NCBI GenBank assembly: GCA_964540825.1
Contig: CAZINT010000002.1
Location: forward strand, 128,993-192,992
Direction: 5' to 3'
Origin: an uncultured Gammaproteobacteria bacterium
GTDB taxonomy: Bacteria; Patescibacteriota; Patescibacteriia; Magasanikbacterales; GWA2-37-8
Length of the DNA: 64,000 nucleotides
This document shows positions 24,503-59,327 of this stretch, in pieces. Both the position numbers and the translations under genes were made by a program. How positions within the stretch are numbered: the first letter of the stretch is position 1; each line of letters opens with the position of its first letter. Under the pieces are notes generated by a model. That model was not told where the DNA came from. It was given only the letters and a program-made list of their open reading frames with translations, and searched no databases.

Positions 24503-24535
24503 AAGGCAATAAAACTCCTGGTTACTATCCTAATT

Positions 24536-26108: not shown

Positions 26109-26155
26109 AGATCTAAAAATACGATAGTGCATACTTACTACTAAATAATTCGGTT

Positions 26156-36222: not shown

Positions 36223-36250
36223 AAAAAACCTGCTTTTTGTCAAGCAGGTT
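36223..36250 (-). terminator. Rho-independent terminator for SDR gene 36282..37274: ACCTGCTT–TTTGTC–AAGCAGGT, with T6 on the minus strand
   Basis: An 8-bp perfect stem. An A-run lies on the plus strand upstream, which is a T-run on the minus strand downstream. Confidence 0.55.
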
Positions 36251-37274: not shown

Positions 37275-37285
37275 ACATTACTTAA

Positions 37286-40001: not shown

Positions 40002-40003
40002 TT

Positions 40004-41538: not shown

Positions 41539-43320
41539 TTATTCCTCTACCTGATAAATAGCCAATTGACCATCGTCAAAAACCTTGTGCTTAAAAAAAC
41601 GGTCGAGCTGCCACTGTGGATCCAATTTTTTATCCCATACCGCATAGGTTATGCGGTATTTTTTTAAGTTTGTAAGTAAAGGGGCTTCTACAAACTCTTG
41701 ATACTCATTGATAAAGGTCTGATCCAATTCTGGCGGATAGCACTCGTAACAACCATTTTTAGCACGATAATAATTTCCAAAAATAAAACGACTGACATTC
41801 CTCCGATTAAGAGGATCAGAAAAATAATTCTTTGCCTCGCTGCTCGGAATGCCGTCTAGATACATATAGGTATAGAATGCTTCTCGAAGTCGCTCAGCTG
41901 CTACCAGATTTTCGCCGGCATACCCATTATAGTAAGCGTTTGCGGGCGTATATACCACCACAAGGGATGAAAAAACATCCGAAGAAAATACCGCATCATC
42001 CTTATTGGTATTTTGGCCGAGCCACTCGATAGCCCCGGCATAGCGCTGCCAGGCAACAAATTGGTCCTTTTGAACGCTGTACGACCAACGCTGGAATACT
42101 ATAGCGACAACTAAAAACAAAATACAGGCAAGGGCGGTGGCTACGGACAACCAACGCTCCGAAATTTTTTTAGATACCTGAGTAAAAAGTATGTACGTAA
42201 AAAGTAAACCCGCTAGTGGCGCCATATAATACCAATGGTAATGCGCTGGAATCGGCAAGGTTCGACCGGTAATGATTTGTTGATTAGAGACTATAAAAAT
42301 AGCTCCTAAAAAAGTCGTCATGAAAATACCAAACGTGTCAAAACGTCGGTATGCCAGCAGGAAGAGCACAAGTGCACCGCACCACACCAAGCTAATTACC
42401 GGGTCGTGGGTCACGACCTGCCCCGCCCTGACTACCAATTCAGGATAATAGGGCGAAGCGATTAATTTGAACGTATTAATAAAATAAGGAATGCCTATGA
42501 TAAGTCCACCTATGGTAATTAACGTAATGATCTTCAATTCTTTAAATCTGCGGCGCACTAAAAAATAAACCCATACCGCACCATTCATGACGAACAGAAG
42601 CGTGAAGGAAAAAACGTATGTATAAAAAGTTAGTCCTAAAAAAAGTGCAGCCAGGGCTCCGATACCCCATTTTTTTCGGGACTCCCAGGTTTCGAAGCGG
42701 GTAAGAACTGTAAAGAGCGCTACGAGATAGGCAAAAAAAACAAGATTACTTACTTGAGGGTTAATAGGTCGACCATACAATAAAAACTCTGCATCATTAG
42801 CTACAAAAACGCCGTGTCTTAGGAGGGGCAGCCAGGTATGCGGGTTGAGGAGCGCAGTGGTCGCCGGTGATAATAAAACAAAACAGGCTCCAATGAGCGA
42901 GACATCCTTACGCTTGGTCAGGAGAAGACCAAGGGCGTACACTAAAAAAAAGATGGTAAAGGGAAAAACAAATTTTGCCGCCAAATTAACATCTGGGACT
43001 GATAAACCCAGCAGCTTGCCTAGTCCCGCAGTAATAACAGCGGGGAGTGGTTGTTTGAGGTATGGCTGATCCTTGCCCTCATACATGTATACGTTGCCAA
43101 AAGAAAAATCCCCATTATACACCGCATGGATCTGCGCCAGATAGCTTGCCTCTCCATCAGTTCCCAGAAAGTCTATCCCTTTAAACGACGGATCAAACCT
43201 GAAAATAACACTAGGCACAGCGATGATAAACGCGCACAAAAACGCAAGCACAATAGCAAAGACATGCGCTTTGACCAGTACTCGGCACCTGAGCACACCC
43301 TCTTTAAGAGATACTGCCAT
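41539..43320 (-). CDS. Large polytopic membrane protein, hypothetical (possible GT-C-like polymerase or transferase)
   Basis: 593 aa with about 12 hydrophobic helices and a C-terminal soluble domain of about 150 aa. No confident motif was found. It lies adjacent to a polyprenol-P GT2. Confidence 0.4.
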   Translation of the reverse strand: MAVSLKEGVLRCRVLVKAHVFAIVLAFLCAFIIAVPSVIFRFDPSFKGIDFLGTDGEASYLAQIHAVYNGDFSFGNVYMYEGKDQPYLKQPLPAVITAGLGKLLGLSVPDVNLAAKFVFPFTIFFLVYALGLLLTKRKDVSLIGACFVLLSPATTALLNPHTWLPLLRHGVFVANDAEFLLYGRPINPQVSNLVFFAYLVALFTVLTRFETWESRKKWGIGALAALFLGLTFYTYVFSFTLLFVMNGAVWVYFLVRRRFKELKIITLITIGGLIIGIPYFINTFKLIASPYYPELVVRAGQVVTHDPVISLVWCGALVLFLLAYRRFDTFGIFMTTFLGAIFIVSNQQIITGRTLPIPAHYHWYYMAPLAGLLFTYILFTQVSKKISERWLSVATALACILFLVVAIVFQRWSYSVQKDQFVAWQRYAGAIEWLGQNTNKDDAVFSSDVFSSLVVVYTPANAYYNGYAGENLVAAERLREAFYTYMYLDGIPSSEAKNYFSDPLNRRNVSRFIFGNYYRAKNGCYECYPPELDQTFINEYQEFVEAPLLTNLKKYRITYAVWDKKLDPQWQLDRFFKHKVFDDGQLAIYQVEE

Positions 43321-43328
43321 AGTAAAAG

Positions 43329-44267
43329 CTACTCATTAAAATTAATTTTTTCCTCAATAAGGTATGGCGGACGGCGTTTAACTTCGTCAAACATGGCTCC
43401 AATATATTCTGCGACTATTCCAAGCGCCACAAACTGCAGTGCAAATAAAAAGGTTACCACTATTCCCAAAATACCTAATCCACTTATTTTCCATGTACCA
43501 ACTAAAGTAACAATCAACACTGCGAGCGCGCACACTCCATCGGCCAAGGCTAACAGTACGCCAAAAGAAAAAATGATACGCAGCGGTTTGCGGCTAAACG
43601 AAACAATACCGGAAACACCTAAATTAATCAGACGTCTTAGAGAATACTTAGTTGCCCCTCCGGGGCGCGGTGCCGCCACAAAACGAATGCTTGTTTGCTT
43701 ATATCCCATCCAAGGAATAATGCCGCGTAAGAAAAAATTACGCTCTCTAATTTGAGTGCCGATAACGTGAGCGACACGTCCAGAAATTAAACGAAAATCC
43801 GGGGCGTTTTGACCCATAGGTATTTCCGATATCGAATTCATGAAAGCATAAAAAATTTTTGAACTGATATTTTTAAAAAAACCAATCGAGTCAGTCCGGT
43901 CGCGAACGGCATTTACTACTTCAAACCCCTTTTCATATTCAGCGATAAGTTTGGGAATGATTTCTGGCGGGTGCTGGAGATCGGAATCCATCATGATAAC
44001 CACATCTGCCCGAGCATGCTCAATACCTGCAAGGAGCGACATTTGGTGCCCAAAACGAGTTGACATACCAAGTATCTGCACTTTTTTATCCACCCGGGCA
44101 ATGTCTTTTAAAATCTCAAGCGTGTTGTCCTGGCCCTTATCGACCACAAACACTATCGACCAGGTATAGGCGTTTACTACATCCAGCTGCTTCTTAACCG
44201 CTTCATAAAAATCGCGAATAATAGCTGCTTCCTGAAATACCGGGCTAATCACTGTCAACGTTTTCAT
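43329..44267 (-). CDS. Polyprenol-phosphate glycosyltransferase (GT2; DPM1/GtrB/ArnC-like) with C-terminal TM helices
   Basis: TVISPVFQE ... IVFVVDKGQDNT ... MDSDLQHPPE. The two C-terminal TM helices are typical of GtrB and ArnC. Confidence 0.8.
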   Translation of the reverse strand: MKTLTVISPVFQEAAIIRDFYEAVKKQLDVVNAYTWSIVFVVDKGQDNTLEILKDIARVDKKVQILGMSTRFGHQMSLLAGIEHARADVVIMMDSDLQHPPEIIPKLIAEYEKGFEVVNAVRDRTDSIGFFKNISSKIFYAFMNSISEIPMGQNAPDFRLISGRVAHVIGTQIRERNFFLRGIIPWMGYKQTSIRFVAAPRPGGATKYSLRRLINLGVSGIVSFSRKPLRIIFSFGVLLALADGVCALAVLIVTLVGTWKISGLGILGIVVTFLFALQFVALGIVAEYIGAMFDEVKRRPPYLIEEKINFNE

Positions 44268-44270
44268 ACG

Positions 44271-44993
44271 TTATGCGTTAAGCAAAGACTCAGCGAGCAT
44301 AGCTTTAATACTCTCATAATTTTCTACGACATGACGGTAATCCTCCGGGCGCCCAATATCATACCAATACCCGTTGAAATCATAAATCCAGATTGGCAGC
44401 TGCTTTTTAAGACTATCCCACATTAACGTATCAAATCCATACCATTCTTTTTTAGGCAATTGATCGATGACAGAACGATTGAAACAATTGATACCAAGCG
44501 CTACATAGGAGTAATGGCTTGGTTTTTCCTGAAAATCGACTAAATGATTGTTTTGATCAAAGGTCAGTACTCCAAAATCAATTTTAACCTCCCGCTTTTT
44601 AGCTGCTACAGATATTACATTCTGTCGCTTAACGTGCTCGTTAAAAAATTCCCGATAATTTAAATCAGTAATAGTGTCGCCATTAACTACTAAAAAATTG
44701 TCGGGCAAATCAGGGATAGCAGTAAGTGCGCCGATAGTATGAAGCGGCTTTTCTTCAAAAGAATAATCAATCTTTACATTCCACTTTGAACCGTCACCAA
44801 AGTAACTGATAATTAAATTACTAAAATGACTGACAGTAATAGTGATATGATCAAAACCATATTTAGCCAATTGCCCAATAACAACTTCCAAAATGACCTG
44901 ATTGTCACCCAGCGGCACAAGGGGCTTCGGAATAGCCATGGTGTATGGATAGAGCCGCGTCCCCTTTCCTCCGGCCAGAATAATCGCGCGCAT
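44271..44993 (-). CDS. Sugar-1-phosphate nucleotidyltransferase, short form (glucose-1-P cytidylyl/thymidylyl-transferase-like)
   Basis: MRAIILAGGKGTRLYPYT is the G-x-G-T-R-L motif. The length is 240 aa. It is adjacent to a 4,6-dehydratase. Confidence 0.8.
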   Translation of the reverse strand: MRAIILAGGKGTRLYPYTMAIPKPLVPLGDNQVILEVVIGQLAKYGFDHITITVSHFSNLIISYFGDGSKWNVKIDYSFEEKPLHTIGALTAIPDLPDNFLVVNGDTITDLNYREFFNEHVKRQNVISVAAKKREVKIDFGVLTFDQNNHLVDFQEKPSHYSYVALGINCFNRSVIDQLPKKEWYGFDTLMWDSLKKQLPIWIYDFNGYWYDIGRPEDYRHVVENYESIKAMLAESLLNA

Positions 44994-45002
44994 GTAAAAA
45001 AA

Positions 45003-46001
45003 TTAAATAGTATACAAATGAGGTTTGTACTGGGCCAAATTTTTTGGCTCTTTAAACCAAGTGACCGTTTCTACCAAAGCGCTTCTTAAATCATACTCAG
45101 GCTCCCAACCAGTCAGATTTTTAATCTTTTCGTTTGATCCAATCAGCCGCTCAACTTCGGATTTTTCCGGACGAATGCGTTCGTTATCAGTAATAACTGT
45201 AATTCTTTGACCGGTAATATCCTGAACATGATTAATAACTTCATCGATGGTAACTCCCGCGCCAGTCGCAATATTTATTTCTTCACCAATCACTTTTTCT
45301 GCCTTTGCAATAGCAACAAATCCACCAACCACATCTTTGACATAGTTAAAATCCCGAATGGTATCCGTGCGTCCTAATTTAATTTCTGTTTTCCCGGCGA
45401 GGATCTGAGTTATAATAGTCGGTATCACTGCCCGGGCAGATTGACGAGGCCCAAAAGTATTAAAAGGACGGACCAGTACAACCGGCACATTAAACGATCG
45501 ATAAAAGGATTCTGCAAGGTGATCAGCCCCAATCTTCGTGGCACTGTATGGTGATTGACCTTGTAGAGGATGTTTTTCATCTATAGGCACATAGAGAGCG
45601 GTCCCATAGACTTCGGAGGTTGAGGTAACGAGTAATTTTTGAACTCCTGCCTGACGAGCAGCCTGCAGCATATTCAACGTACCTGTAATATTTGTTTCAA
45701 CAAAAGTACGGGGTGAATGGTAAGAAAAAGGAATTGGAATAAGGGCAGCCAAGTGAAAAACAATCTCACAGCCTTCGGTGGCCTGACTTACTCTATCGCT
45801 ATCCCGAATGTCTCCACTCAACACTTCAATTTGAGCTAAAATATCTGGTGCAAGAGAGTCGAGCCAGCCCCAGGTGTTAAATGAATTATACAAAACAAAT
45901 GCCCTGACCGAGGCTCCAAGCTGAACCAGTAACTCAACCAGATGACTACCAATAAATCCGTCCGCCCCTGTCACTAATACTTTTTTACCTCGCAAGTCCA
46001 T
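45003..46001 (-). CDS. NDP-hexose 4,6-dehydratase-like SDR (CDP-glucose 4,6-dehydratase-like)
   Basis: KKVLVTGADGFIGSHL. YxxxK reads YSATKIGAD. The length is 332 aa. It is paired with the upstream nucleotidyltransferase. Confidence 0.7.
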   Translation of the reverse strand: MDLRGKKVLVTGADGFIGSHLVELLVQLGASVRAFVLYNSFNTWGWLDSLAPDILAQIEVLSGDIRDSDRVSQATEGCEIVFHLAALIPIPFSYHSPRTFVETNITGTLNMLQAARQAGVQKLLVTSTSEVYGTALYVPIDEKHPLQGQSPYSATKIGADHLAESFYRSFNVPVVLVRPFNTFGPRQSARAVIPTIITQILAGKTEIKLGRTDTIRDFNYVKDVVGGFVAIAKAEKVIGEEINIATGAGVTIDEVINHVQDITGQRITVITDNERIRPEKSEVERLIGSNEKIKNLTGWEPEYDLRSALVETVTWFKEPKNLAQYKPHLYTI

Positions 46002-46075
46002 ATGGATTTATCCCTTTAATTAAGCTCAAATTCGCCTAAATAGCCCATCTATTATCTAATATTTTGCCCCTAGTG

Positions 46076-47518
46076 TCAAGCAATTTTTTCGAGGGGTTTT
46101 TGGTTTTTTAGTTCGTTATTACTACTTTTTTTCTGGCAACATATGTATCCTTCGCATACTACGAGCAGCACTAAACCATTGACCGGGAAACGAAAACGGG
46201 CGTTAATACTCAATCCATTACTAATAGTTGTTAGAGAAAAATAAGCAATAATTAAAATAAACAACACCCTTGTAACAGATAATCGGCGGCGAATAAGACA
46301 GTGGAGCGTGGTAACCACAAATAGTACTCCCACCACAGTCCACACACACCGATCCAGAACGAGGGCTATCATGGCGGGCTGAAAAAGGGTGGCGAGCAAA
46401 GCATTCCTCGCTTCGGGGGTAAGGTGAAAGAACCGAACGATCTCTGAAGCAGCTATTTCCGGACGCTGTATGTCCCAAAGCGATAGCAAATCCAGAAGTC
46501 CGTCATGCGTAAAGAAAGTGGTTACGCTAATTGCAGCAACAATTATAAATTCCCGGGGATACTGCTTAATAGTTTCGATGGCTCGCTGCCGAAACCAAGG
46601 GGCCTTATCAACACTGAGCGAGGGAGTACCCGTTATCCCATCGGCCGCCAGATACTCTTGCTGAGCCACAGTAAAAGGTTGATGATTTTTGATGACTAAT
46701 AAAGATGGCGCCAAAGTTTCGTAGAGCACTTGCTCTTTAATCGCTGAATACGAAAATGTTTTAAACTCAACATAGTTACGAATCATCCAAGGGAAGACGG
46801 GTAGCACAGAGCATACTAAAAATAGCCCCATATACAACGTAAAAGCAGTTTGTTTTCGAATAAGACGATACCCAAGCCAAGCAATTGCCAACAAGGTACT
46901 TAAATACATGGTTGAAGGACGAAAAAGCGTTGCACACCCCAGCAGCACACCGGCAAAGTAAAGCGATCTGAACGAAGGCGTACTCCTAAAATTTTGTTCG
47001 CTACTTTGGATAAACCTCACCAGCTGAATAACAGCCGAGAGTAGGAGTAGGGTAAAAAATATTTCAGTAAAAAATCTGATTGATAAGCTTATGCTAAATG
47101 GATCGATCGCTAAAAAAATCATTGCCCCATATCTTAGGCGATCAGGTAGCGTTAACATGTGAGCGAGCTTCCCTACCAGAATAGGTAAATAACTGGCAAT
47201 TAGAATTTGCACCCCAAGCACAAACCAAATACTGTGTGTAAGGAACAGGCTCGCAACGATCAACGCCGGGTAACCGGGAGTACGCGTCGAATCAGGGATT
47301 AAAGTGGTTTGGTCTTGAGAGAAGACGTGGTGCTCATACAGATTGGAGGCAATTTCATAGTATCCATCAGCTTTTACTCTATGTATAAATTGGTTCGTGT
47401 CAAAGTTAGTATGCGCGAAGGTAATACAGCCAACTGCTAGGCGCAAAAATAAACCTAACAAAAAAATATAGAAAGCAGCATGAGTCGCCATTTTTTTACC
47501 CACCGCTTGCAGTATCAT
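46076..47518 (-). CDS. GT-C family membrane glycosyltransferase (ArnT/PMT-like)
   Basis: 480 aa and polytopic. A charged motif lies in the first extracytoplasmic loop (RVKADGYYEIASNLYEH). It is adjacent to a polyprenol-P GT2. Confidence 0.55.
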   Translation of the reverse strand: MILQAVGKKMATHAAFYIFLLGLFLRLAVGCITFAHTNFDTNQFIHRVKADGYYEIASNLYEHHVFSQDQTTLIPDSTRTPGYPALIVASLFLTHSIWFVLGVQILIASYLPILVGKLAHMLTLPDRLRYGAMIFLAIDPFSISLSIRFFTEIFFTLLLLSAVIQLVRFIQSSEQNFRSTPSFRSLYFAGVLLGCATLFRPSTMYLSTLLAIAWLGYRLIRKQTAFTLYMGLFLVCSVLPVFPWMIRNYVEFKTFSYSAIKEQVLYETLAPSLLVIKNHQPFTVAQQEYLAADGITGTPSLSVDKAPWFRQRAIETIKQYPREFIIVAAISVTTFFTHDGLLDLLSLWDIQRPEIAASEIVRFFHLTPEARNALLATLFQPAMIALVLDRCVWTVVGVLFVVTTLHCLIRRRLSVTRVLFILIIAYFSLTTISNGLSINARFRFPVNGLVLLVVCEGYICCQKKSSNNELKNQKPLEKIA

Positions 47519-48654: not shown

Positions 48655-48657
48655 ACG

Positions 48658-49323: not shown

Positions 49324-49326
49324 ATT

Positions 49327-51183: not shown

Positions 51184-51198
51184 ACCTTTTAAGAAAAC

Positions 51199-52554: not shown

Positions 52555-52587
52555 TCCTTAAAACACTACTTTTAACAGTATTTGTAC

Positions 52588-53286
52588 CTACACAAACAAG
52601 TTAAACTTAATAATTGACCAAATAGCGCTAAAACCATCTTTCCAGTTTATCTTTTTACCTTCAGCGTAGGTTCGTCCATAGTAAGAAATACCTACTTCAT
52701 AAAGCCGCAGCTTGGCCTGGGCAACTCGAGCGGTAATTTCCGGCTCGATGTTAAAACGATTAGCGGTTAGACGAGGCAAAATCTTGGCCAACGCCTCTTT
52801 ACTAAACATTTTATAACACGTTTCCATATCAGTGAGATTGAGGTCCGTAAAAATATTTGAAAAAAAGGTTAAAAATTTATTGCCAATCGAATGAAAGAAA
52901 AATAAAATCCGGTGTGGATTACCTCCCATAAAACGCGATCCGTAGACCACGTCAGCATGGCCACTTGTGAGCGGCGCCAAAAGCAAACGGTACTCACCCG
53001 GATCATACTCGAGGTCAGCATCCTGAATAATAATGAAGTCCCCCGTTGCGATGGCAAGTCCCTGGCGAATTGCCGCTCCTTTACCTTGGTTAACCGGCTG
53101 AAAATGGATTTTGTAATCCGGGCGCTGCATGGTTGCCAAAAGATCACGCGTGCCATCTTTGGAACCATCATCAACGATGATAATTTCTTTCTCAAAATCA
53201 GGAAGAACTACCTTGTCAATAGCCCCCAGAATCAAATGAATAGTTTCAACTTCATTATAGACCGGGATTACAATGGAAAGCTTCAT
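52588..53286 (-). CDS. Polyprenol-phosphate glycosyltransferase (GT2, DPM1-like, soluble short form)
   Basis: [10 protein letters not shown] ... [12 protein letters not shown] ... QDADLEYDP. The length is 232 aa. Confidence 0.8.
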
Positions 53287-54338
53287 ACGGTGGTAGCAGC
53301 AATAAAATAAGAAACGATATTGTTAATTAAGCGACTTAAATTGTGGTTTTTAACCACGTATTCACGAGCCTTTTCATTGGGTTTTAGTATACCAGACTGA
53401 TATATTTTTTCAATATTTTTAGCCAAATCAACAGCGTCTCCTTGTTTAAAAGAAGTAACCACACCCTTTTCAGACAAATCGCTGAAGGCTTCACTGGAAG
53501 TAATTACTGAAAGACCGACAGCCAAGGGTTCAAGCACAGCCTTATCTACACTCCCTGTTTGGCTGGCATGCAAAAAAACCGATTGCTCTTGAAGAAATGA
53601 TGGTACATCCGTATACGTTAGCGCGCCTCTAAACGTAATTATTTTTTCAGCCTCAAGCTCAACTACAAGAGCCCCAAGCTCAGCAAAGTATACCTGATCA
53701 TCTGGCAAGATAGGCGCCCCAACAATGGTAAAATAACACTCTCCGGCTGGTATGCGTTTAGCTGCCTCTGCAGCCCCTTTTATAAGCGTTACCAGGTCTT
53801 TAGAGCGGGCAATGCGTCCTACGGTCACTAGTTTGAAGGGGTGCCGCGAGATGTATGGAGCAGGCAAAAAAGCTTCAGTATTAATACCATGACCAACATA
53901 CGCGACTTTTGAGCTTGGCAAACGAAAACTTTCCGGAGATGTTGTAAAAATTTGATTCACAAATTTTTCAGCCACACGAAGTTGCCAGGTAACTGAGCGG
54001 TGGACATACCAAAGCAAAATTGGCTTTTTCCAAAGTTTCCACAAAAAAGCACCTAAAATAACATAGATTTGGTTCATATGAACCCACACACCATCGTACT
54101 CGCCGCGCCGCGAAATAATGTACCGATAAAAATTAACCAGATACTTCAGGCGCGATTCACCCGCCTCTTTTCCTAACGTCAAAATTTCAACATTAGCCGG
54201 TAAATCGTAAGAGCCTTTTTGTAAACAAATAACTGTTAACTTTTCTACCTGCAAAGCTAACCGGCGGAGCCATTCGTGAAACGATCCGAGGTTGCTGTCA
54301 GTTTGATCTACCTTTTGGGTGATGACGAGGAGTTTCAT
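53283..54338 (-). CDS. Glycosyltransferase family 4
   Basis: A GT-B C-terminal domain. The gene has 4-bp overlaps with genes on both sides. Confidence 0.7.
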
Positions 54339-55336
54339 ATACGCAGCATAGCATTTTTAAAACCTTCGCCGTCGTTAACGGGGAGGATAGTTACTTTAGG
54401 CCCAGGCTTGAGTTCAAAGCCCGCAACTCCAACATCAGACATGATAACCGGCGTACCAACCGCCGACGCTTCCATAACGACACGACCGTAACTTTCACTG
54501 CGACTTGGGAATAATACGGCGCTCGCTGCCAAATAATAACTATAAGGATCAGTCGTCCAGGGCACAAAAAAAACTTTTTTTTCGAGTAGACCTAGTTTTT
54601 TGGCAAGCGCCGTTAAACGCTCTTTCTCTTCACCCTCTCCAACTATAATTAAAGCGGCACTACCACCTTCTTCAACATATGCTTTAAAAACACCTAGTAA
54701 CCAGGCAATATTTTTTACCGGATCGAGTCGCCCTATAACAATAAAAAATTTTTCATATCCTGGATACGCTGCACGCAGATCGCGAGGCTGGTGAACCATT
54801 TCTCGCCAAAGGATATCCCGCTTACTGACAGCCGGTCGTACGATAATCAGGTCATGGGAGAAACCCAAATTTAAAAGATTCTCTTGTACGCGCTGACTAA
54901 CCACACGCAACCTGTCTGCTCTTTTTAAGGTCCACAAGCCAAACTTTCTTCGCCACCACGGATATTCATAGGTACCATCTGACAATTGGTTAAAAAAATC
55001 ACCATGGAGCTGAATTTCAAGGGCAACATTAAATCTTTTTTTTAATAAAACACCAATAAGTCCAGTAAAAAATGGGTCCTGACAAGTAATGGTGTCGATT
55101 TTATTTTTTTTAAAGCACTCTTTGCCGATCCGGTAGAGATTAAAGAACTGCAGCACCTTAGATCCGCCGCCTGATCCAATGGCTATAATCGAGGTGCCGA
55201 ATTTTTTTATTACACGCTCACTACACGGAACAATAATGCTCAATTCGTTTTCATATTCATAATCAATCATCCGCTGGGCTACGGCGGATGTTTCGTCAAA
55301 TACCTTTTTGTCAAGACTAATCATTAACTGGCGCAT
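54335..55336 (-). CDS. Glycosyltransferase family 4
   Basis: The sequence ESYGRVVMEASAVGTPVI. The gene contains three A8/T8 homopolymer tracts within the coding sequence. Confidence 0.75.
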   Translation of the reverse strand: MRQLMISLDKKVFDETSAVAQRMIDYEYENELSIIVPCSERVIKKFGTSIIAIGSGGGSKVLQFFNLYRIGKECFKKNKIDTITCQDPFFTGLIGVLLKKRFNVALEIQLHGDFFNQLSDGTYEYPWWRRKFGLWTLKRADRLRVVSQRVQENLLNLGFSHDLIIVRPAVSKRDILWREMVHQPRDLRAAYPGYEKFFIVIGRLDPVKNIAWLLGVFKAYVEEGGSAALIIVGEGEEKERLTALAKKLGLLEKKVFFVPWTTDPYSYYLAASAVLFPSRSESYGRVVMEASAVGTPVIMSDVGVAGFELKPGPKVTILPVNDGEGFKNAMLRI

Positions 55337-56496
55337 ATATGTTCCAACAAATCTTTAGTTTCTCCTATCATTGTACCAACAGTAAACTTTTTTAGCGAAA
55401 TACCAGTGTCTGAATACTTCAAAGTCTCAACTGGAGTTATGCGCACCGGATTTTCATCAAGCAGCTCTTTAATCTTATTTTTAATTTCATCAGCGTTATT
55501 ATAGGTAAAAAGCCGATCAGACGCTACCAATTCGGGGTTACCGCCTTTTTTGCTTGCCAGTACGGGTATACCGAGGGCTTGCGCTTCAAGAATAGCGTGC
55601 GACATACCTTCGTAACTACTATTCAAAACAAAAAGATCTGCGCCTGCTATATACTCAAGTGCTTCTGTTCGCCGTTTATTACCTAATAATTCTACAAAGT
55701 TTTCAGCTTTTAAAGTTGCAACTTTATTCTTGAGCGCACCCATCTCTGGTCCATCACCAATAATTTTCAACTTAAGATTGGCATAGTGCGAATCTTTGAC
55801 GAGCATGCTTACAGCCTCGACGAGCGCTTCCATCCCTTTCCAGGGCAATAAACGCGCCACACTCACTACCCACCGTTCACCTGAGTGCATTTTTGGTTCT
55901 GCTTTTTTAAATTCAACAGCATTATAGACTACTGTTACTTTGTCATTTATTGCACCCCAGCCAAGCACCATTTTTCTTAAATAATTACAGGGCGTAATAA
56001 CATGGTCAGCGCGGCGAACAACAGACGACTCAATCCGCCGCAATACTCCTACTTTATTGAAACTTTTTTTCTCATATTGAAAGTCATCTATGAGCGCGGT
56101 TATCCCATACTGCGCGACCCCTTGCTCCCAAGCATAGTCTCCCACGACTTTAACTACAAATTTCTTACCAAGTTTACGAGCAGCACGAAGCGCCGGGTAG
56201 CCGGCATTCACCGGTCCCATTGCATAGATTATGTCTGCACTCTTGCCTTTTGCGAGCAGGAGCTTGTAATACTGCCGATAACGGAGCGGTTTGAAGCGGC
56301 TCGCTACTGCTACCAATTCCACTTTGTCATCAAGCACTTTTTTATCTGAATGTGGATTTAAAGAAACAATCGTAACCTCGACCCCTTGCTTAACGAGCTC
56401 ATTGGCTAGCGTCACTGAATAGGTCGCGGGACCACCGGACTCAGGCGGAAATATATCGGCTGCAATTATAAGTTTCATACATTTAGAGCGATTCAA
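55324..56496 (-). CDS. Glycosyltransferase family 4
   Basis: The sequence EGMSHAILEAQALGIPVLAS. 13-bp overlap with the downstream GT4 (54335..55336). Confidence 0.8.
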   Translation of the reverse strand: MNRSKCMKLIIAADIFPPESGGPATYSVTLANELVKQGVEVTIVSLNPHSDKKVLDDKVELVAVASRFKPLRYRQYYKLLLAKGKSADIIYAMGPVNAGYPALRAARKLGKKFVVKVVGDYAWEQGVAQYGITALIDDFQYEKKSFNKVGVLRRIESSVVRRADHVITPCNYLRKMVLGWGAINDKVTVVYNAVEFKKAEPKMHSGERWVVSVARLLPWKGMEALVEAVSMLVKDSHYANLKLKIIGDGPEMGALKNKVATLKAENFVELLGNKRRTEALEYIAGADLFVLNSSYEGMSHAILEAQALGIPVLASKKGGNPELVASDRLFTYNNADEIKNKIKELLDENPVRITPVETLKYSDTGISLKKFTVGTMIGETKDLLEHICAS

Positions 56497-57685
56497 ACAA
56501 GGACTTCATCTGCTGGGCAAGTATTTTCCACGTATACTTTTCAGCAATTAATTTTTGGGCGTTCGTTACCACGCGATTAACGTCTGATTTATTTTCTTCA
56601 TTTATAATATAGAGCACCTTTTCGGCAATGCTCTTGGGGTTTTTTACTTTACAAAACCAACCAGTAACTCCGTCAGTCAAAAATTCAGGAATGCCTCCAA
56701 CAGGCGTAGCGATTACTGGAGTTGCGGCGGCCATCGCTTCAAGAAAAGAAATTCCGAGACCTTCAGAAAGACTTGGCCTGCAAAAAATGTCGCTCCCCCA
56801 TAAATAGGCCGGCAATTCGGCATTTGGTTTAGAACCCAAAAAATGAGTTCGTTCGCTGACATGAAGGGTTTCTGCCAGTTGGCGAAGGGAGGTTTCGAGT
56901 TCTCCGCCACCGAATATAACGAGATGAACTGAAAAAGGTAAAAAGGACAAGCTTCTGATTAAATCAGCTACAGCATTTTTAGGTACAAGACGTGATGAGG
57001 TAAAAAGTATTTTTGTGTCAAATGGAATACCGATTTTTGCCCGCAGATCACTCGCAGCTTTTTGACGGATATCTGACGTTCCTGGATCGAATACCTCTAG
57101 TTTTACACCGTTTGGTATAACACTAATCAAACTTTTTGAACCCATTTTGATAGCCCAATTTTTTAAATACGTACTGATAGCCTGAATACGATCTGCCCGC
57201 TGAAAAATTTGTTTAAAGTACGGCCAACACCACCAGACATGTTTATAAATATGCCACTTACTATCCCCCTCTTGCAAATTAAGCAAAAAAGGAACCGTTG
57301 GATTTTGGTTCTTGTACCTAAGGGCTGCAAAGCCGGCATAGCTTGCCATGATACCCCACACAGCATCAAACTTCCCCAGGGTTGCGGCTTTTTTGGGCCC
57401 CTGCCAGATAAGGCGATATTTATCAAACGATGTTCCCCTTCCAAGGCGATGCACCTGAATGACGCCAATTTTTTCTTGCTCCGGAAGTTTGGGATCAAGC
57501 CGGGGAGTAACCATGACAAATTCAAAATCATCTGCCAGTCGATCAGTAATTTCTTTAACTGCAACTTCAGCTCCCCCAATAAAGGGCAGATACGCTGTGG
57601 AAAAGATAAGAATACGTTTTGACATAGTATAATTATTTTTGAGGAGCCTCAGCAACGTAATACACTTTAAAAGCCAGCACTCCAT
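56483..57685 (-). CDS. Glycosyltransferase family 4
   Basis: The sequence EGLGISFLEAMAAATPVIAT. The likely start is MSKRILIFST at about 57628. The track ORF begins earlier. Confidence 0.8.
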   Translation of the reverse strand: MECWLLKCITLLRLLKNNYTMSKRILIFSTAYLPFIGGAEVAVKEITDRLADDFEFVMVTPRLDPKLPEQEKIGVIQVHRLGRGTSFDKYRLIWQGPKKAATLGKFDAVWGIMASYAGFAALRYKNQNPTVPFLLNLQEGDSKWHIYKHVWWCWPYFKQIFQRADRIQAISTYLKNWAIKMGSKSLISVIPNGVKLEVFDPGTSDIRQKAASDLRAKIGIPFDTKILFTSSRLVPKNAVADLIRSLSFLPFSVHLVIFGGGELETSLRQLAETLHVSERTHFLGSKPNAELPAYLWGSDIFCRPSLSEGLGISFLEAMAAATPVIATPVGGIPEFLTDGVTGWFCKVKNPKSIAEKVLYIINEENKSDVNRVVTNAQKLIAEKYTWKILAQQMKSLFESL

Positions 57686-59327
57686 CGTCGCGATAAATCA
57701 AATCCGGTACAATGCCGAGCTTGTCTAATTTTTCTTCCATTTCTGGTGCTAATCTGGATTTCTTCGTTATAGAGTCCAAGGGCGCTCCTGCCTCGGCTTT
57801 AATAAAATAAAAACTATTGAGGGTTAATTGTTTAAGCAGGTTATTCTCGGCTATCGAAATATACGGCAAATTTTGATAAAACCGGCGTCGTTCAAAAAGC
57901 CATACGCGGCTAAACCAACTAATCCGGTCATCAAATATAATAATATTGCTATGCGCTAAACTTTCGGCTAACTTTTGCTGGTTTGTTTTTAATAAATAGG
58001 GCACAGTCCTGTCATCCTTCACCTTTATTTCACCATACAGATCAAGGGGTGTAAGATTTTTGTCACGTGCAGCGAGAGCATCAAGATAGGCGTCGAGCTG
58101 AGCAACACCATAATTTTGCGAGGATGCTTCGCTATAGGTCCAGCCGATTCGCCCATAATGGACTGCTAAAACATGACTATTAATAACAAAAAAAGCAAGG
58201 TAGACCAGCAGTATCACTTTCCCAACCTGCAGGCTAATTTCGGCTTTTTTACCATAGACAGCGCCTAAACGTTTCGCAAGATCGACTGACGCCAGCGCAA
58301 TGAGCGGGGCGGCAAAAATTGCATACAGCGAAAGAATATACCCGTATTGGCCAATAAAAAATTGTTGGACGGTAAAAAGAAGAACAAGGCTCAGCAGAAA
58401 GGTAAGACGGCGTTTCCACCAAAGTGTATAGCCGAGAGCCAGTACGAAAAGTGCGAGATAAGGCCAGGAAATAAGATGTCCGAGCTCTAAAAACAGATCT
58501 CCAAACCTTGCCAGCGTGGGCGCGGAAACAGCTGAAAGATGCCAAGGACTGGACTGATGGAATAAACGGACAAACTGCAACGAAAAATGTCCGGTCGCTT
58601 GGTACATGGAAAGATTGTAGATAATAAGTGGTAGTTGCAGCGAAAATGCAATCCCCAAAGCCCCGTAGAACTTCACGCTTCTAAACCAGCTCCGATGGTT
58701 GAGGGCGATAAAAAGAAGAAGAGCAGGAAAAAGGAAAAGCGTCGTAAATTTAAGCGCGAGCGCCACACCAAAAGCAAGCCCGAATTTCCACCACTGTCTA
58801 TTATTTTCTTCATAACGAATAAAATAATAAACAGCGAGGAGTACGCCAAACATGACACCGCTTTCAAGGTACGCAACGCGGCCCGTCCAAATAAAATGGG
58901 CATTAAGCACTAAAAGCAGACAGGCCAAGACTGCTGCTCGCCGATCGAGACGACGAACAAAAAAATACATGAGGACCAGGCTACCGAGCGCAAAAAGGGC
59001 GGAGGGCAATTTAGCAAAAAAACCAGTTTGATGCATTGCCAAAAACAGATGCTGAACTAAAAACAGCGGCTTGGGGTGGTCGTGGAATGAAAGCGCTGAC
59101 CACCATGGCGTATGATCAAACCATTGTACGGGGGTTGATTGCGCATTTACTTCGCCAAACATAAAATCAATCGGCGCAACTGCTCGAGCGCTGTAATGAG
59201 CATCATCGCCTGTCATATCCACATGAGAAATACGAAAAAAGAGAAGAAAGGCCGTAACAAGAAAAACTGCCACCAAGGGACGCGGCAGGCGTGCCGACAA
59301 CGAAGAAGTGGTAGGTTGTTTGGCCAT
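57633..59327 (-). CDS. GT-C family membrane glycosyltransferase (PMT/ArnT-like, GT39-like)
   Basis: 564 aa. The first-loop motif is HVDMTGDDAHYSARAV (DD.HY). It is polytopic with a C-terminal soluble domain. Confidence 0.65.
   Translation of the reverse strand: MAKQPTTSSLSARLPRPLVAVFLVTAFLLFFRISHVDMTGDDAHYSARAVAPIDFMFGEVNAQSTPVQWFDHTPWWSALSFHDHPKPLFLVQHLFLAMHQTGFFAKLPSALFALGSLVLMYFFVRRLDRRAAVLACLLLVLNAHFIWTGRVAYLESGVMFGVLLAVYYFIRYEENNRQWWKFGLAFGVALALKFTTLFLFPALLLFIALNHRSWFRSVKFYGALGIAFSLQLPLIIYNLSMYQATGHFSLQFVRLFHQSSPWHLSAVSAPTLARFGDLFLELGHLISWPYLALFVLALGYTLWWKRRLTFLLSLVLLFTVQQFFIGQYGYILSLYAIFAAPLIALASVDLAKRLGAVYGKKAEISLQVGKVILLVYLAFFVINSHVLAVHYGRIGWTYSEASSQNYGVAQLDAYLDALAARDKNLTPLDLYGEIKVKDDRTVPYLLKTNQQKLAESLAHSNIIIFDDRISWFSRVWLFERRRFYQNLPYISIAENNLLKQLTLNSFYFIKAEAGAPLDSITKKSRLAPEMEEKLDKLGIVPDLIYRDDGVLAFKVYYVAEAPQK

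What the first reader, a model, noticed from the sequence alone, without database searches (positions are those of the whole stretch)
41539..59327. Multiplicity of GT-C (ArnT/PMT-like) membrane transferases paired with polyprenol-phosphate GT2 synthases
At least three GT-C-type polytopic proteins (46076–47518, 51199–52554, 57633–59327), plus an uncharacterised 593-aa membrane protein (41539–43320), are interspersed with two DPM1/GtrB-type polyprenol-phosphate sugar synthases (43329–44267, 52588–53286). This pairing is the hallmark of extracytoplasmic glycosylation using lipid-phosphate sugar donors, seen in protein O-mannosylation, lipid A and teichoic acid modification, and Gtr-type glucosylation. 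Three or four paralogous GT-C enzymes in one locus suggests stepwise extracytoplasmic decoration of a surface polymer or glycoprotein with several different sugars.
Basis: inference. Interest (0 to 1): 0.5.

Follow-up and report, generated by a model that had tools for sequence, protein, structure and literature searches.

The report
Four lipid-sugar glycosyltransferases in one operon
A 24-kb operon from an uncultivated ultra-small (Patescibacteria/CPR-type) bacterium encodes four very different membrane enzymes that attach sugars outside the cell from lipid-phosphate-sugar donors, and two enzymes that make such donors. This is a known kind of cell-surface glycosylation machinery, but one of the four enzymes belongs to a large family that no curated database model covers.

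Summary
All six ORFs exist at the stated coordinates.

**The membrane proteins.**
- 57633-59327 and 51199-52554 pass Pfam PMT_2 (and PMT for the first).
- 46076-47518 is sub-threshold, but its homologues carry PMT_2 and its AlphaFold model matches only GT-C enzymes.
- Its family has more than 1,100 50%-identity clusters at E≤1e-30 and no Pfam or NCBIfam model. Some members are fused to short GT2 domains homologous to the 232-aa GT2, or to GtrA flippase domains.

**The two GT2 enzymes.**
- The 312-aa GT2 is a full-length GtrB/ArnC homologue.
- The 232-aa GT2 aligns over its full length only with polyprenol-phosphate sugar synthases.

**Context.**
- Cassette order is conserved in other Patescibacteria genomes.
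- The four GT-Cs are not recent paralogues.
- No flippase gene lies in the window.
- Acceptor and sugars remain inferred.

**Verdict.** This is a real, fairly ordinary Gtr/Arn/Pgf-type system containing one new GT-C family.

The parts
57633..59327 (-). GT-C #1 (564 aa), PMT/PMT_2-type. About 9-10 TM helices plus a roughly 170-aa C-terminal soluble domain.
   Evidence: PMT_2 59.6 bits and PMT 46.4 bits, both above cut-off. In 31 homologues D41 is invariant and position 42 is acidic in 94%, directly after TM1; R48, E155, K193 and H247 are also invariant. Sources name the homologues 'glycosyltransferase family 39' or 'phospholipid carrier-dependent glycosyltransferase', from Patescibacteria.
51199..52554 (-). 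GT-C #2 (451 aa), PMT_2-type, with no large soluble domain.
   Evidence: PMT_2 46.9 bits, above cut-off; GT87 18.9 bits, sub-threshold. D45-x3-Y49-D50 follows TM1. A 45%-identical orthologue in L003 sits in the same GT2-...-GT-C-AsnB cassette.
46076..47518 (-). GT-C #3 (480 aa), a divergent PMT_2-like protein.
   Evidence: PMT_2 only 21.2 bits, below the 26.1 cut-off, but many homologues carry precomputed PF13231. AF2 model pLDDT 90.5. Foldseek top hits are all GT-C: AglB, STT3, ArnT, Pmt4, ALG9, PimE. D51 is nearly invariant and Y53 invariant after TM1.
41539..43320 (-). GT-C #4 (593 aa). Member of a large GT-C family with no Pfam or NCBIfam model. About 11 TM helices plus a roughly 150-aa C-terminal alpha/beta domain.
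43329..44267 (-). GtrB/ArnC/PgfS-type polyprenyl-phosphate glycosyltransferase (312 aa, two C-terminal TM helices). It ends 8 nt upstream of GT-C #4.
   Evidence: PgfS 239 bits and ArnC 142 bits over the full length; both are below their equivalog cut-offs. GtrB sll0501 (5ekp) 186 bits over residues 4-306; ArnC 132 bits. D94-x-D96 is present and the 'DFR' aspartate is conserved. Two C-terminal TM helices.
52588..53286 (-). TM-less DPM1/PpgS/AglJ-type GT2 (232 aa), a probable polyprenyl-phosphate sugar synthase. It ends 33 nt upstream of GT-C #2.
   Evidence: Full-length alignments occur only with AglJ (104 bits), PpgS, the haloarchaeal Dol-P-hexose transferase and PgfS. Best solved relative is Pyrococcus DPMS 5mlz, then ArnC and GtrB. 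D89-x-D91 is present and there is no TM helix. A 70%-identical orthologue is found in L003. It is homologous (E 1.6e-24 to 1.8e-13) to five of the six GT2 domains fused to GT-C #4-family proteins; the sixth, P0207, gives 3.3e-6.
45003..46001 (-). LegB-type NAD-dependent NDP-HexNAc 4,6-dehydratase (332 aa).
   Evidence: TIGR04180 484.2 bits against a cut-off of 475. L006 conserves the block LegB-like (71%), NTP-transferase (73%), GtrB-like (56%), GT-C #4 (60%).
44271..44993 (-). Sugar-1-phosphate nucleotidylyltransferase (240 aa).
   Evidence: NTP_transferase 139 bits. Best NCBIfam matches are mannose-1-P guanylyltransferase, MurU and HddC, all below cut-off.
53283..57685 (-). Four consecutive cytoplasmic GT4 (GT-B) glycosyltransferases (400, 390, 333 and 351 aa).
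   Evidence: Glycos_transf_1 and Glyco_transf_4 hits.
47515..51183 (-). AsnB-type glutamine amidotransferase (618 aa), SAM methyltransferase (221 aa) and a GT4-like transferase (379 aa).
   Evidence: Asn_synthase 290.8 bits and asn_synth_AEB 463.9 bits; the XrtA/PEP-CTERM amidotransferase model is below cut-off. Orthologues are found in L003 in the same order. AsnB and/or the methyltransferase lie next to GT-C #4 homologues in eight further loci, L008, L009, L010, L012, L014, L015, L017 and L018.
39024..41506 (-). MBOAT (DltB/AlgI-like, 500 aa) plus a single-TM protein with a sub-threshold SGNH/DUF1574 match (325 aa). Probably an extracytoplasmic O-acyltransferase pair.
   Evidence: MBOAT 109 bits; DltB model 154.6 bits, below its cut-off of 375. 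DUF1574 27.4 bits (cut-off 29.1) and Lipase_GDSL_2 18 bits; one N-terminal TM helix. No solved relative by sequence.
36282..38926 (-). A truncated NDP-sugar dehydrogenase fused to a methyltransferase (546 aa), then an SDR epimerase/dehydratase (330 aa). These are the last genes of the operon.
   Evidence: Orthologues at 47.5% and 72.8% identity sit directly after the GT-C #4 homologue in L011.
59336..60292 (-). SDR NDP-sugar epimerase/dehydratase (318 aa), the first gene of the operon.
   Evidence: GDP_Man_Dehyd 187 bits and Epimerase 173 bits. All NCBIfam equivalogs are below cut-off.
36227..36250 (-). Terminator-like hairpin followed by a T-run, just after the last gene.
   Evidence: The number of such sites in the region is not above the shuffle expectation, so this is suggestive only.
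61588..63645 (-). Wzy_C (O-antigen ligase/polymerase-like) protein with C-terminal TPR (685 aa). This is context and lies outside the operon.
   Evidence: Wzy_C 71.5 bits and TPR_19. Two more proteins lie beyond the window edge in L001: a 756-aa Wzy_C/TPR protein and a 1055-aa ORF cut by the locus end, not looked up.

Best explanation
The region is the core of a cell-envelope glycan operon (36282-60292, 20 genes) inside a glycan island of at least 60 kb in a Patescibacteria (CPR) genome.

It encodes a Gtr/Arn/Pgf-type extracytoplasmic glycosylation machinery. The proposed steps are:

1. On the cytoplasmic face, two GT-A enzymes charge polyprenyl phosphate with a single sugar from a nucleotide sugar. 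One is a GtrB/ArnC-type enzyme with two TM helices (43329-44267). The other is a TM-less DPM1/PpgS-type enzyme (52588-53286). Neighbouring genes make and tailor the nucleotide sugars: a nucleotidylyltransferase, a LegB-like 4,6-dehydratase, SDR enzymes, an AsnB-type amidotransferase and methyltransferases.
2. The lipid-phosphate sugars are flipped by a flippase that is not encoded in the window.
3. Four mutually divergent GT-C enzymes transfer the sugars outside the membrane, each using an acidic motif in its first outer loop. The most likely acceptor is a surface glycopolymer whose backbone is built by the five GT4 enzymes.
4. The MBOAT plus SGNH-like pair then O-acylates the polymer.

Shown here: the fold and family of all six proteins, the conserved catalytic-loop motifs, conserved gene order, and domain fusions. 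Inferred: the donor sugars, the flippase, the acceptor and the order of reactions.
For: **GT-C identity.**
- Pfam PMT_2/PMT is above cut-off for two of the proteins. The third has family-level PF13231.
- hhalign links the 593-aa and 480-aa families at 91.9% probability.
- Each protein has a basic N-terminus before TM1 and an acidic motif directly after TM1. The motif is conserved family-wide: D41 100% in the 564-aa family, position 57 acidic in 96% and Y60 93% in the 593-aa family.

**Synthases.**
- Full-length GtrB/ArnC homology with the DxD and DFR aspartates and two C-terminal TM helices.
- The 232-aa GT2 aligns over its acceptor half only with Pol-P/Dol-P sugar synthases.

**Functional coupling.**
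- A GT2 ends 8 nt and 33 nt upstream of a GT-C.
- GT2 followed by a 593-family GT-C recurs in L003, L004, L005, L006 and L020. A GT2 lies within the flanks in 12 of 16 distinct loci.
- Those short GT2s also resemble only Pol-P synthases over their full length.
- 13 of the top 150 family representatives carry N-terminal fusions: 6 GT2 (five homologous to the window's 232-aa GT2 at E 1.6e-24 to 1.8e-13, the sixth at 3.3e-6), 6 GtrA_DPMS_TM and 1 GT4.
- L003 conserves the cassette GT-C#3, GT2_232, MTase, GT-C#2, AsnB, GT2, GT4 at 42-70% identity.

**Literature precedent.** Three-component synthase/flippase/GT-C systems that modify polysaccharides, teichoic acids and proteins are described in PMC11127046, PMC7389260 and bioRxiv 10.1101/2024.05.05.592596.
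Against: - No GtrA, SMR or MATE flippase gene is present anywhere in the 64-kb window.
- Only two synthases are encoded for four GT-Cs.
- No NCBIfam equivalog cut-off is reached by any GT-C or GT2, so donor sugars cannot be named.
- No priming phosphoglycosyltransferase and no Wzx were found in the window, so the backbone pathway is incomplete as seen.
- The LegB-like dehydratase and the nucleotidyltransferase could instead feed the nonulosonic-acid pathway encoded at 22457-27160.
- The 480-aa protein is below the Pfam cut-off on its own.
- Foldseek TM-scores are only about 0.45-0.52.
- Nothing here distinguishes a polysaccharide acceptor from a protein acceptor.
Confidence: 0.75

Rival explanations
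1. The acceptors are proteins rather than a polysaccharide. One or more of the GT-Cs would O-glycosylate (PMT/Pgf/PgtC2-like) or N-glycosylate (OST-like) surface proteins such as pilins or S-layer proteins.
Against: No MIR domain, no YfhO hit and no WWDYG motif were found. GT2 and GtrA fusions point to Pol-P-monosaccharide donors rather than Pol-PP-oligosaccharide donors. The operon is packed with GT4 backbone transferases, an amidotransferase and an MBOAT/SGNH-like pair, which is typical of polysaccharide loci. No candidate Ser/Thr-rich acceptor gene was found in the operon.
Confidence: 0.3
2. The GT-Cs are extracytoplasmic chain builders rather than decorators. They would polymerise or branch a glycan from Pol-P-sugar donors outside the membrane, as Emb/Aft/Mpt enzymes do for mycobacterial arabinan and mannan.
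For: AftA, AftD, AftB and PimE are among the structural neighbours. Related loci carry at least 7 GT-C genes and at least 6 short GT2 genes in 22 kb (L003), more than simple side-chain decoration needs. No Wzx or priming transferase was seen in the window. L005 has a UbiA plus phosphatase pair reminiscent of DPPR synthase.
Against: Five GT4 enzymes and neighbouring Wzy_C-TPR proteins can already account for a conventionally built backbone. No carbohydrate-binding module was detected on the GT-Cs. There is no direct evidence for processivity.
Confidence: 0.2
3. The 232-aa GT2 is an ordinary Leloir GT2 that adds a sugar to the lipid-linked repeat unit, not a polyprenyl-phosphate sugar synthase. 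Only the GtrB-like enzyme, or synthases encoded elsewhere, would then supply the GT-Cs.
For: All NCBIfam scores are far below equivalog cut-offs; the best is 104 bits against 325. N-terminal halves also match EpsD, PgaC, TuaG and others. It has no TM helix.
Against: Alignments that cover the C-terminal acceptor half occur only with Pol-P/Dol-P synthases. The best solved relatives are DPMS, ArnC and GtrB. Homologous domains are fused directly to GT-C proteins. Adjacency to a GT-C is conserved at 70% identity in L003. TM-less DPM1/PpgS-type synthases are known (established knowledge of human DPM1 and mycobacterial PpgS).
Confidence: 0.2
4. The LegB-like dehydratase and nucleotidyltransferase upstream of the GtrB-like gene belong to the legionaminic-acid-type nonulosonic acid pathway of the island. 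They would not supply the GtrB-like enzyme.
For: The LegB model is passed at 484 bits against a cut-off of 475. NeuC-like, CMP-transferase, NeuB and DegT genes lie elsewhere in the window. L005 also combines these genes.
Against: The four-gene block LegB-like, NTP-transferase, GtrB-like, GT-C#4 is contiguous and conserved in L006. In L005 a dehydratase, nucleotidyltransferase, GT2 and DegT directly precede the GT-C homologue. The two roles are not mutually exclusive.
Confidence: 0.4

Closest known systems
Gtr-type three-component glycosylation (GtrA flippase, GtrB Und-P-glucose synthase, GtrC/GT-C transferase) of Shigella/Salmonella O-antigens, and its Gram-positive counterparts CsbB/GtcA/YfhO for teichoic acids
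   Same: A GtrB homologue with the same architecture (186 bits to sll0501, two C-terminal TM helices) sits directly upstream of a polytopic GT-C with an acidic first outer loop. Family members elsewhere are fused to GtrA. The concept is described in PMC11127046 and PMC7389260.
   Different: No GtrA gene is present in the window. The GT-Cs are not YfhO or GtrC-family by HMM. There are four GT-Cs and two synthases in one operon rather than one of each. The host is a CPR bacterium.
Arn pathway (ArnA/B/C/T) for lipid A modification with L-Ara4N
   Same: An ArnC-like synthase (132-142 bits, full length) is coupled to nucleotide-sugar tailoring genes and a PMT_2-type GT-C. JGI names several homologues 'ArnT-like'.
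   Different: ArnC and ArnT equivalog cut-offs are not reached. No ArnA, ArnB, ArnD, ArnE or ArnF was found. Patescibacteria are generally described as monoderm, so a lipid A acceptor is unlikely (not tested here).
Streptococcal Pgf (PgfS/PgfM1/PgfE/PgfM2) and GtrB/PgtC2 protein O-glycosylation
   Same: The best NCBIfam match of the 312-aa GT2 is PgfS (239 bits). The gene set has the same outline: synthase, epimerase/dehydratase and two or more GT-Cs (PMC5856776; bioRxiv 10.1101/2024.05.05.592596).
   Different: The PgfS cut-off (500) is not reached. PgfM1, PgfM2 and PgtC2 are YfhO-family, and there is no YfhO hit here. No adhesin or Ser/Thr-rich acceptor genes lie in the operon.
Mycobacterial Pol-P-sugar dependent envelope glycosylation (Ppm1/PMT, PpgS/Rv3779-type, Emb/Aft/Mpt, PimE)
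   Same: A TM-less DPM1/PpgS-like synthase is combined with multiple divergent GT-Cs in one organism. AftA, AftD, AftB and PimE are among the structural neighbours.
   Different: There is no sequence-level membership in GT39, GT53, GT85, GT87 or GT89 models. The proteins are much smaller and lack CBM domains. The genes are clustered in a single operon.
GT136 pentofuranose three-component systems (Kelly et al. 2024, PMC11127046)
   Same: It is a recent example of a new GT-C family founded from an O-antigen locus, with the same logic of donor synthase, flippase and GT-C.
   Different: The donor synthase there is a UbiA-type PPPRS and the flippase is a MATE protein. Here the synthases are GT2 enzymes and the flippase is unknown.

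Membership tests
GT-C fold glycosyltransferase superfamily | Polytopic membrane protein (7-13 TM helices) with N-terminus in the cytoplasm and a long first extracytoplasmic loop | tested here: met
   Hydropathy and AF2 secondary structure show about 9-12 TM helices in all four proteins. Each has a basic N-terminus before TM1 and a 40-70-residue loop with short helices between TM1 and TM2. Topology rests on the positive-inside rule only.
GT-C fold glycosyltransferase superfamily | Conserved acidic (DxD/DD/DxE-type) motif in the first extracytoplasmic loop | tested here: met
   564 aa: D41 100%, position 42 acidic 94%. 593 aa: D55 74%, position 57 acidic 96%, Y60 93% in 137 representatives. 480 aa: D51 at least 90%, Y53 invariant. 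451 aa: D45/D50 are present, but family conservation was not assessed.
GT-C fold glycosyltransferase superfamily | HMM match to a GT-C clan family above the curated cut-off | tested here: inconclusive
   Met for the 564-aa protein (PMT_2 59.6, PMT 46.4) and the 451-aa protein (PMT_2 46.9). The 480-aa protein is sub-threshold (21.2 against 26.1), though its homologues carry PF13231. The 593-aa protein has no hit.
GT-C fold glycosyltransferase superfamily | Three-dimensional similarity to solved GT-C enzymes | tested here: met
GT-C fold glycosyltransferase superfamily | Use of a lipid-phosphate-linked sugar donor | not testable with these tools
   Supported only indirectly, by GT2 and GtrA adjacency and fusions.
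GtrB/ArnC-type polyprenyl-phosphate glycosyltransferase (GT2) | GT-A domain with DxD, a conserved catalytic Asp in the 'DFR' region, interface helices and two C-terminal TM helices; full-length homology to GtrB/ArnC | tested here: met
   312-aa protein: residues 4-306 align with 28-328 of sll0501 (186 bits) and 2-308 with ArnC (132 bits). D94-x-D96 and 'PDFRL' are conserved. Two TM helices lie at about 228-293.
PgfS or ArnC equivalog (specific sugar) | NCBIfam equivalog score at or above the curated cut-off | tested here: not met
   PgfS 239 against 500; ArnC 142 against 529. The donor sugar is therefore unassigned.
DPM1/PpgS/AglJ-type polyprenol-phosphate sugar synthase | GT-A domain with DxD whose acceptor half aligns with Pol-P/Dol-P synthases; functional link to a GT-C | tested here: inconclusive
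   232-aa protein: D89-x-D91 is present. Full-length alignments occur only with AglJ, PpgS, DPhHxTase and PgfS, all below cut-off. Best PDB relative is DPMS at 53.6 bits, N-terminal 134 residues. GT-C adjacency is conserved and homologous domains are fused to GT-C. Activity was not tested.
Protein O-mannosyltransferase (GT39, PMT) | PMT N-terminal domain, luminal MIR domain and C-terminal 4TM PMT domain | tested here: not met
   Only the 564-aa protein hits PMT, and only partially (profile positions 80-235 of 245). No MIR or PMT_4TMC hit in any of the four.
Oligosaccharyltransferase (STT3/PglB/AglB) | WWDYG motif in the C-terminal globular domain; STT3 HMM match | tested here: not met
   No STT3 Pfam hit and no WWDYG in the 593-aa sequence. 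W562-D563 is conserved only among close relatives.
   None of the four proteins hits these models at E≤0.01. Wzy_C is found only in the separate gene 61588-63645.
YfhO family GT-C (PgfM1/PgtC2/teichoic acid glycosylation) | YfhO HMM match | tested here: not met
   No YfhO hit at E≤0.01.
Complete Gtr-type three-component system | A dedicated small flippase (GtrA/GtcA, SMR ArnE/F, or MATE) encoded with the synthase and GT-C | tested here: not met
   No such gene was found in the window. GtrA domains are fused to members of the 593-aa family in other organisms.

The most novel reading that the evidence does not exclude
The 593-aa protein would represent an undescribed, CAZy-level GT-C family. It has more than 1,100 50%-identity clusters at E≤1e-30 and no Pfam or NCBIfam model, and in this survey it was found mainly in Patescibacteria. 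In this reading, arrays of 4-7 divergent GT-Cs with short GT2 synthases would mean that these ultra-small bacteria assemble much of a lineage-specific surface heteroglycan outside the membrane from polyprenyl-phosphate monosaccharides. That glycan might include 6-deoxy-amino or amidated sugars. This would be an assembly logic closer to mycobacterial arabinan than to classical side-chain decoration.
Probability: 0.25. Interest if true: 0.6.

Novelty: new member of a known kind. Interest (0 to 1): 0.35.

Why it matters
Patescibacteria are abundant, mostly uncultivated episymbionts, and their envelope chemistry is essentially unknown. This window is glycan genes almost end to end. The operon shows that such an organism invests heavily in lipid-phosphate-sugar dependent, outside-the-membrane glycosylation.

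The practical gain is an annotation for a large 'hypothetical membrane protein' family. It can now be called a GT-C glycosyltransferase with a D-x-E-x-x-Y catalytic-loop motif, and with GT2 and GtrA fusion partners that predict its donor type. That gives concrete targets for biochemical reconstitution.

It does not change the concept of how such systems work.

Tried and rejected
- **PDB sequence and profile searches.** Searches with the 593-aa family, the 480-aa family, the 564-aa protein and the 325-aa protein gave no meaningful hits. Only fold comparison worked.
- **Under-counted family size.** The word-indexed homologue search found only 27 relatives of the 593-aa protein. This wrongly suggested a tiny family. 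The exhaustive profile search found 3124.
- **Genome scan.** The search for related loci with the divergent alignment A1 failed. A closer alignment, A3, gave 15 loci. Some of these carry implausible taxon labels (Gammaproteobacteria, Woesearchaeota), which I did not trust.
- **AFDB fold search.** The afdb50 library was unavailable.
- **Cluster look-up.** This gave no names or accessions. The organism is inferred only from homologue names.
- **Literature.** Searches combining Patescibacteria or Parcubacteria with GT-C or PMT_2 found nothing specific. Starr et al. (PMC6031116) only mention Dol-P-mannosyltransferase genes in a Saccharibacterium.
- **Promoter and terminator scans.** Counts were not above shuffle expectation.
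- **Flippase search.** I looked for a GtrA, SMR or MATE flippase, a priming phosphoglycosyltransferase and a Wzx in the window and found none.
- **Rejected readings.** I considered and rejected Wzy/ligase, OST, PMT (GT39 sensu stricto) and YfhO membership (see the membership tests).
- **Recent paralogy.** BLASTP rejected recent paralogy among the four GT-Cs.

Full report
**1. What is in the sequence**

They belong to a run of 20 co-directional genes, 36282-60292. Intergenic distances range from -53 to +97 nt, and most are below 35 nt. The run is bounded upstream by a divergent GT4 gene (60429-61613, +). Downstream there is a terminator-like hairpin at 36250-36227. Such matches are no more frequent than in shuffled sequence, so this is only suggestive.

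The gene order, from Pfam and NCBIfam scans, is:
- SDR epimerase/dehydratase (318 aa)
- GT-C #1 (564 aa)
- four GT4 transferases
- short GT2 (232 aa)
- GT-C #2 (451 aa)
- AsnB-type amidotransferase (618 aa)
- methyltransferase (221 aa)
- GT4-like transferase (379 aa)
- GT-C #3 (480 aa)
- LegB-type 4,6-dehydratase (332 aa)
- sugar-1-P nucleotidylyltransferase (240 aa)
- GtrB/ArnC-like GT2 (312 aa)
- GT-C #4 (593 aa)
- MBOAT (500 aa)
- single-TM SGNH/DUF1574-like protein (325 aa, sub-threshold)
- truncated NDP-sugar dehydrogenase fused to a methyltransferase (546 aa)
- SDR (330 aa)

The rest of the window is also almost entirely glycan genes:
- NeuC/NeuA/NeuB-like genes
- a Capsule_synth protein
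- an ABC exporter
- UDP-glucose dehydrogenase
- four more GT2s
- a pyruvyl transferase
- a deacetylase
- a C-methyltransferase
- a DegT aminotransferase
- FtsW/RodA
- a Wzy_C-TPR protein

**2. Source organism**

The same proteins are on record from a Logan assembly of SRR11567520 and from an NCBI contig of 248,779 bp, without names. Homologues of three of the GT-Cs come from several named groups:
- Parcubacteria, Patescibacteria and Paceibacterota
- Giovannonibacteria, Komeilibacteria and Harrisonbacteria
- Portnoybacteria and Doudnabacteria

I therefore take the window to be from a Patescibacteria (CPR) bacterium. This is inference from homologue names, not a phylogenetic placement.

**3. Are the polytopic proteins GT-C?**

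GT-C #1 passes PMT_2 (59.6 bits, cut-off 26.1) and PMT (46.4, cut-off 22.7). GT-C #2 passes PMT_2 (46.9).

GT-C #3 scores only 21.2 bits on PMT_2, below the cut-off. Three further results support it:
- Many of its homologues carry precomputed PF13231.
- An AlphaFold model built on 31 homologues has pLDDT 90.5 and pTM 0.89.
- Its best Foldseek matches in the PDB are GT-C or GT-C-like folds only: AglB, STT3, ArnT, Pmt4, Pmt1/2, ALG9, Emb and PimE.

The 593-aa protein has no Pfam or NCBIfam hit and no sequence-level PDB relative. The evidence that it is GT-C is:
- Its model is confident (pLDDT 92, pTM 0.91).
- Foldseek agrees.
- A profile-profile comparison links it to the GT-C #3 family. The probability is 91.9% and E is 7e-7 over 204 N-terminal columns. 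The alignment puts its D-G-E..Y segment on the D-G-Y-Y of GT-C #3.

All four proteins share two features:
- A basic N-terminus before TM1, which by the positive-inside rule places the next loop outside.
- An acidic motif directly after TM1.

The motif is conserved family-wide:
- In the 564-aa family D41 is invariant and position 42 is acidic in 94% of 31 sequences.
- In 137 representatives of the 593-aa family D55 is conserved in 74%, position 57 is acidic in 96% and Y60 is conserved in 93%.
- In the 480-aa family D51 is at least 90% conserved and Y53 is invariant.

None of the four hits Wzy_C, Wzx-type, YfhO, STT3 or MIR models.

The four are mutually very distant. Only #2 and #3 are detectable by BLASTP, at 24% identity and E 2e-4. 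They are four old GT-C lineages, not recent duplicates. This fits four different specificities.

**4. Are the GT2 enzymes polyprenol-phosphate sugar synthases?**

The 312-aa protein aligns from residue 4 to 306 with the structurally characterised GtrB of Synechocystis (sll0501, 186 bits). It aligns from 2 to 308 with ArnC (132 bits). It keeps D94-x-D96 and the 'DFR' aspartate, and it has the two C-terminal TM helices of this family. Its best NCBIfam models are PgfS (239 bits) and ArnC (142 bits). Both are below their equivalog cut-offs, so the sugar cannot be named.

The 232-aa protein has no TM helix. Its evidence is:
- Its N-terminal half resembles many GT2s, but alignments running through the acceptor half occur only with AglJ (104 bits), PpgS, the haloarchaeal Dol-P-hexose transferase and PgfS.
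- Its best solved relatives are Pyrococcus DPMS, ArnC and GtrB.

I regard the first assignment as secure and the second as probable.

**5. Is the pairing functional?**

Three lines of evidence say it is.

(a) Spacing. The GtrB-like gene ends 8 nt before GT-C #4, and the 232-aa GT2 ends 33 nt before GT-C #2.

(b) Synteny, across several loci:
- L003 (GCA_964510885.1) has the order GT-C#3 homologue, GT2_232 orthologue (70%), MTase, GT-C#2 orthologue (45%), AsnB (56%), GT2, GT4_379 orthologue (42%), then epimerase, short GT2, GT-C#4 orthologue (57%). It carries further PMT_2 and GT2 genes: at least 7 GT-C and at least 6 short GT2 in 22 kb.
- L006 conserves the block LegB-like (71%), nucleotidyltransferase (73%), GtrB-like (56%), GT-C#4 (60%).
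- L004, L005 and L020 have a short GT2 directly, or one gene, upstream of the GT-C#4 homologue.
- A GT2 is detectable within the flanks in 12 of 16 distinct loci.
- The short GT2s next to GT-C#4 homologues again align over their full length only with Pol-P/Dol-P synthases.

(c) Domain fusions. An exhaustive profile search shows that the 593-aa family is large: 3124 representatives at E≤1e-3 and 1169 at E≤1e-30. Among the best 150, 13 carry N-terminal extensions, as follows:
- Six are GT2 domains.
- Six are GtrA_DPMS_TM domains.
- One is a GT4 domain.

Five of the six fused GT2 domains are homologous to the window's 232-aa GT2 (phmmer E 1.6e-24 to 1.8e-13); the sixth, P0207, is much weaker at 3.3e-6.

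No Pfam model hits the GT-C part of any of the ten members scanned. A cytoplasmic GT2 followed by TM1 and an outside loop is the topology expected for synthase-transferase coupling. A GtrA fusion supplies the third component of a Gtr-type system.

**6. Mechanism proposed**

The steps are:
1. Nucleotide sugars are made and tailored in the cytoplasm by the nucleotidyltransferase, the LegB-like dehydratase, SDR enzymes, the AsnB-type amidotransferase and the methyltransferases.
2. The two GT2 enzymes transfer single sugars to polyprenyl phosphate.
3. The lipid-P-sugars are flipped.
4. The four GT-Cs transfer them to acceptors outside the membrane.
5. The MBOAT plus SGNH-like pair adds acyl groups there, by analogy with AlgI/AlgJ, PatA/PatB and DltB/DltD (established knowledge).

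Steps 2 and 4 rest on family, fold, motif, synteny and fusion evidence. The remaining points are inferred:
- the donor sugars
- the flippase
- the acceptor
- the order of reactions

I favour a glycopolymer acceptor built by the five GT4 enzymes and handled by the neighbouring Wzy_C-TPR proteins. The operon composition is typical of polysaccharide loci. Protein glycosylation is not excluded.

**7. Weak points**

- No GtrA, SMR or MATE flippase, no priming phosphoglycosyltransferase and no Wzx are encoded in the 64 kb.
- Two synthases serve four GT-Cs, so donors are shared or made elsewhere.
- The LegB-like and nucleotidyltransferase genes may belong to the nonulosonic-acid pathway of the island rather than to the GtrB-like enzyme.
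- Foldseek TM-scores are moderate (0.45-0.52).
- Topology was not measured.

**8. Comparison with known systems**

The logic is that of the widespread three-component systems:
- Gtr systems for O-antigens
- CsbB/GtcA/YfhO for teichoic acids
- ArnC/ArnEF/ArnT for lipid A
- PgfS/PgfM1 and GtrB/PgtC2 for streptococcal proteins
- Ppm1/PMT and PpgS in mycobacteria
- the recently defined GT136 pentofuranose systems

These are described in PMC11127046, PMC7389260, PMC5856776 and bioRxiv 10.1101/2024.05.05.592596.

Membership in any specific subfamily (ArnT, PMT sensu stricto, OST, YfhO, PgfS or ArnC equivalogs) was tested and not met. See the membership table.

**9. Novelty and score**

Three things are new:
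- The 'uncharacterised' protein is recognised as a member of a large GT-C family that no curated model covers. It has a defined catalytic-loop motif and informative GT2 and GtrA fusions.
- Multi-GT-C/short-GT2 arrays recur in Patescibacteria glycan loci.
- I found no paper describing this. The library searched is incomplete.

Interest is 0.35. This is useful for annotation and for CPR envelope biology, but it is not conceptually surprising.

Noticed in passing
window 37286-38926 (-): A 546-aa fusion. It has the N-terminal and central domains of an NDP-sugar dehydrogenase but lacks the C-terminal UDP-binding domain, and it is joined to a class-I SAM methyltransferase. A 47.5%-identical orthologue sits directly after the GT-C#4 homologue in L011. 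L003 has a stand-alone 318-aa truncated dehydrogenase in the same neighbourhood. Function unknown.
   Followed up: partly
window 20756-27160 and 33109-35497: Genes of a legionaminic/pseudaminic-type nonulosonic acid pathway: a NeuC-like hydrolysing epimerase, a CMP-transferase, NeuB, a PfkB kinase and a HAD phosphatase. With them are a Capsule_synth (KpsC/S-like) protein, an NDP-hexose C-methyltransferase and a DegT aminotransferase. Similar sets accompany GT-C#4 homologues in L004 and L005.
   Followed up: partly
window 35362-36175: A GC-rich patch (about 51% against about 43% around it) holds a NUDIX hydrolase ORF (35612-36175, -) between two convergent glycan operons. Long overlapping ORFs on both strands there are typical of high-GC sequence. 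It may be a foreign insertion.
   Followed up: no
window 2000-6000: A second GC-rich stretch (51-53%) contains two tRNA-Pro genes (GGG at 2809-2883, CGG at 4769-4843). It also has ORFs with no Pfam hit, including a 177-aa ORF with a lipoprotein-like signal (…LFAGC…) at 3115-3648.
   Followed up: no
L005 2847-4104 (Candidatus Giovannonibacteria, GCA_001778465.1): A UbiA-family prenyltransferase-like protein (288 aa) is followed by a small HAD-type phosphatase (133 aa), next to AsnB and methyltransferase genes. This resembles the polyprenyl-phosphoribose synthase plus phosphatase pair of mycobacterial DPA synthesis and the GT136 systems (PMC11127046).
   Followed up: no
window 46051-46079 (-): A sigma-70-like promoter match (11 of 12 positions: TTGACA, 17 nt, GATAAT) lies in the 74-nt gap between GT-C#3 and the LegB-like gene. 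It may be an internal promoter for the LegB, NTP-transferase, GtrB, GT-C#4, MBOAT sub-operon. The number of such matches in the region is not above chance.
   Followed up: no
window 61588-63645 (-) and L001 1-4309: L001 shows a 756-aa Wzy_C protein with C-terminal TPR repeats and a 1055-aa ORF of unknown family, cut by the locus end. Together with the window's 685-aa Wzy_C-TPR protein they lie in a row just upstream of the operon. Their role (polymerase, ligase or other) is open.
   Followed up: no
L007/L003, L016, L019 record titles: Some public MAG records carrying close homologues are labelled 'uncultured Gammaproteobacteria' or 'Woesearchaeota archaeon'. Their gene content and 57-70% identity to this window argue for Patescibacteria, so the taxon labels are likely wrong or placeholders.
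   Followed up: no
window 51199-52554 (-): The 451-aa translation from the GTG start is not in the protein collection, while the other five proteins are. The true start is probably one of the downstream ATG codons (codon 3 or codon 19).
   Followed up: no
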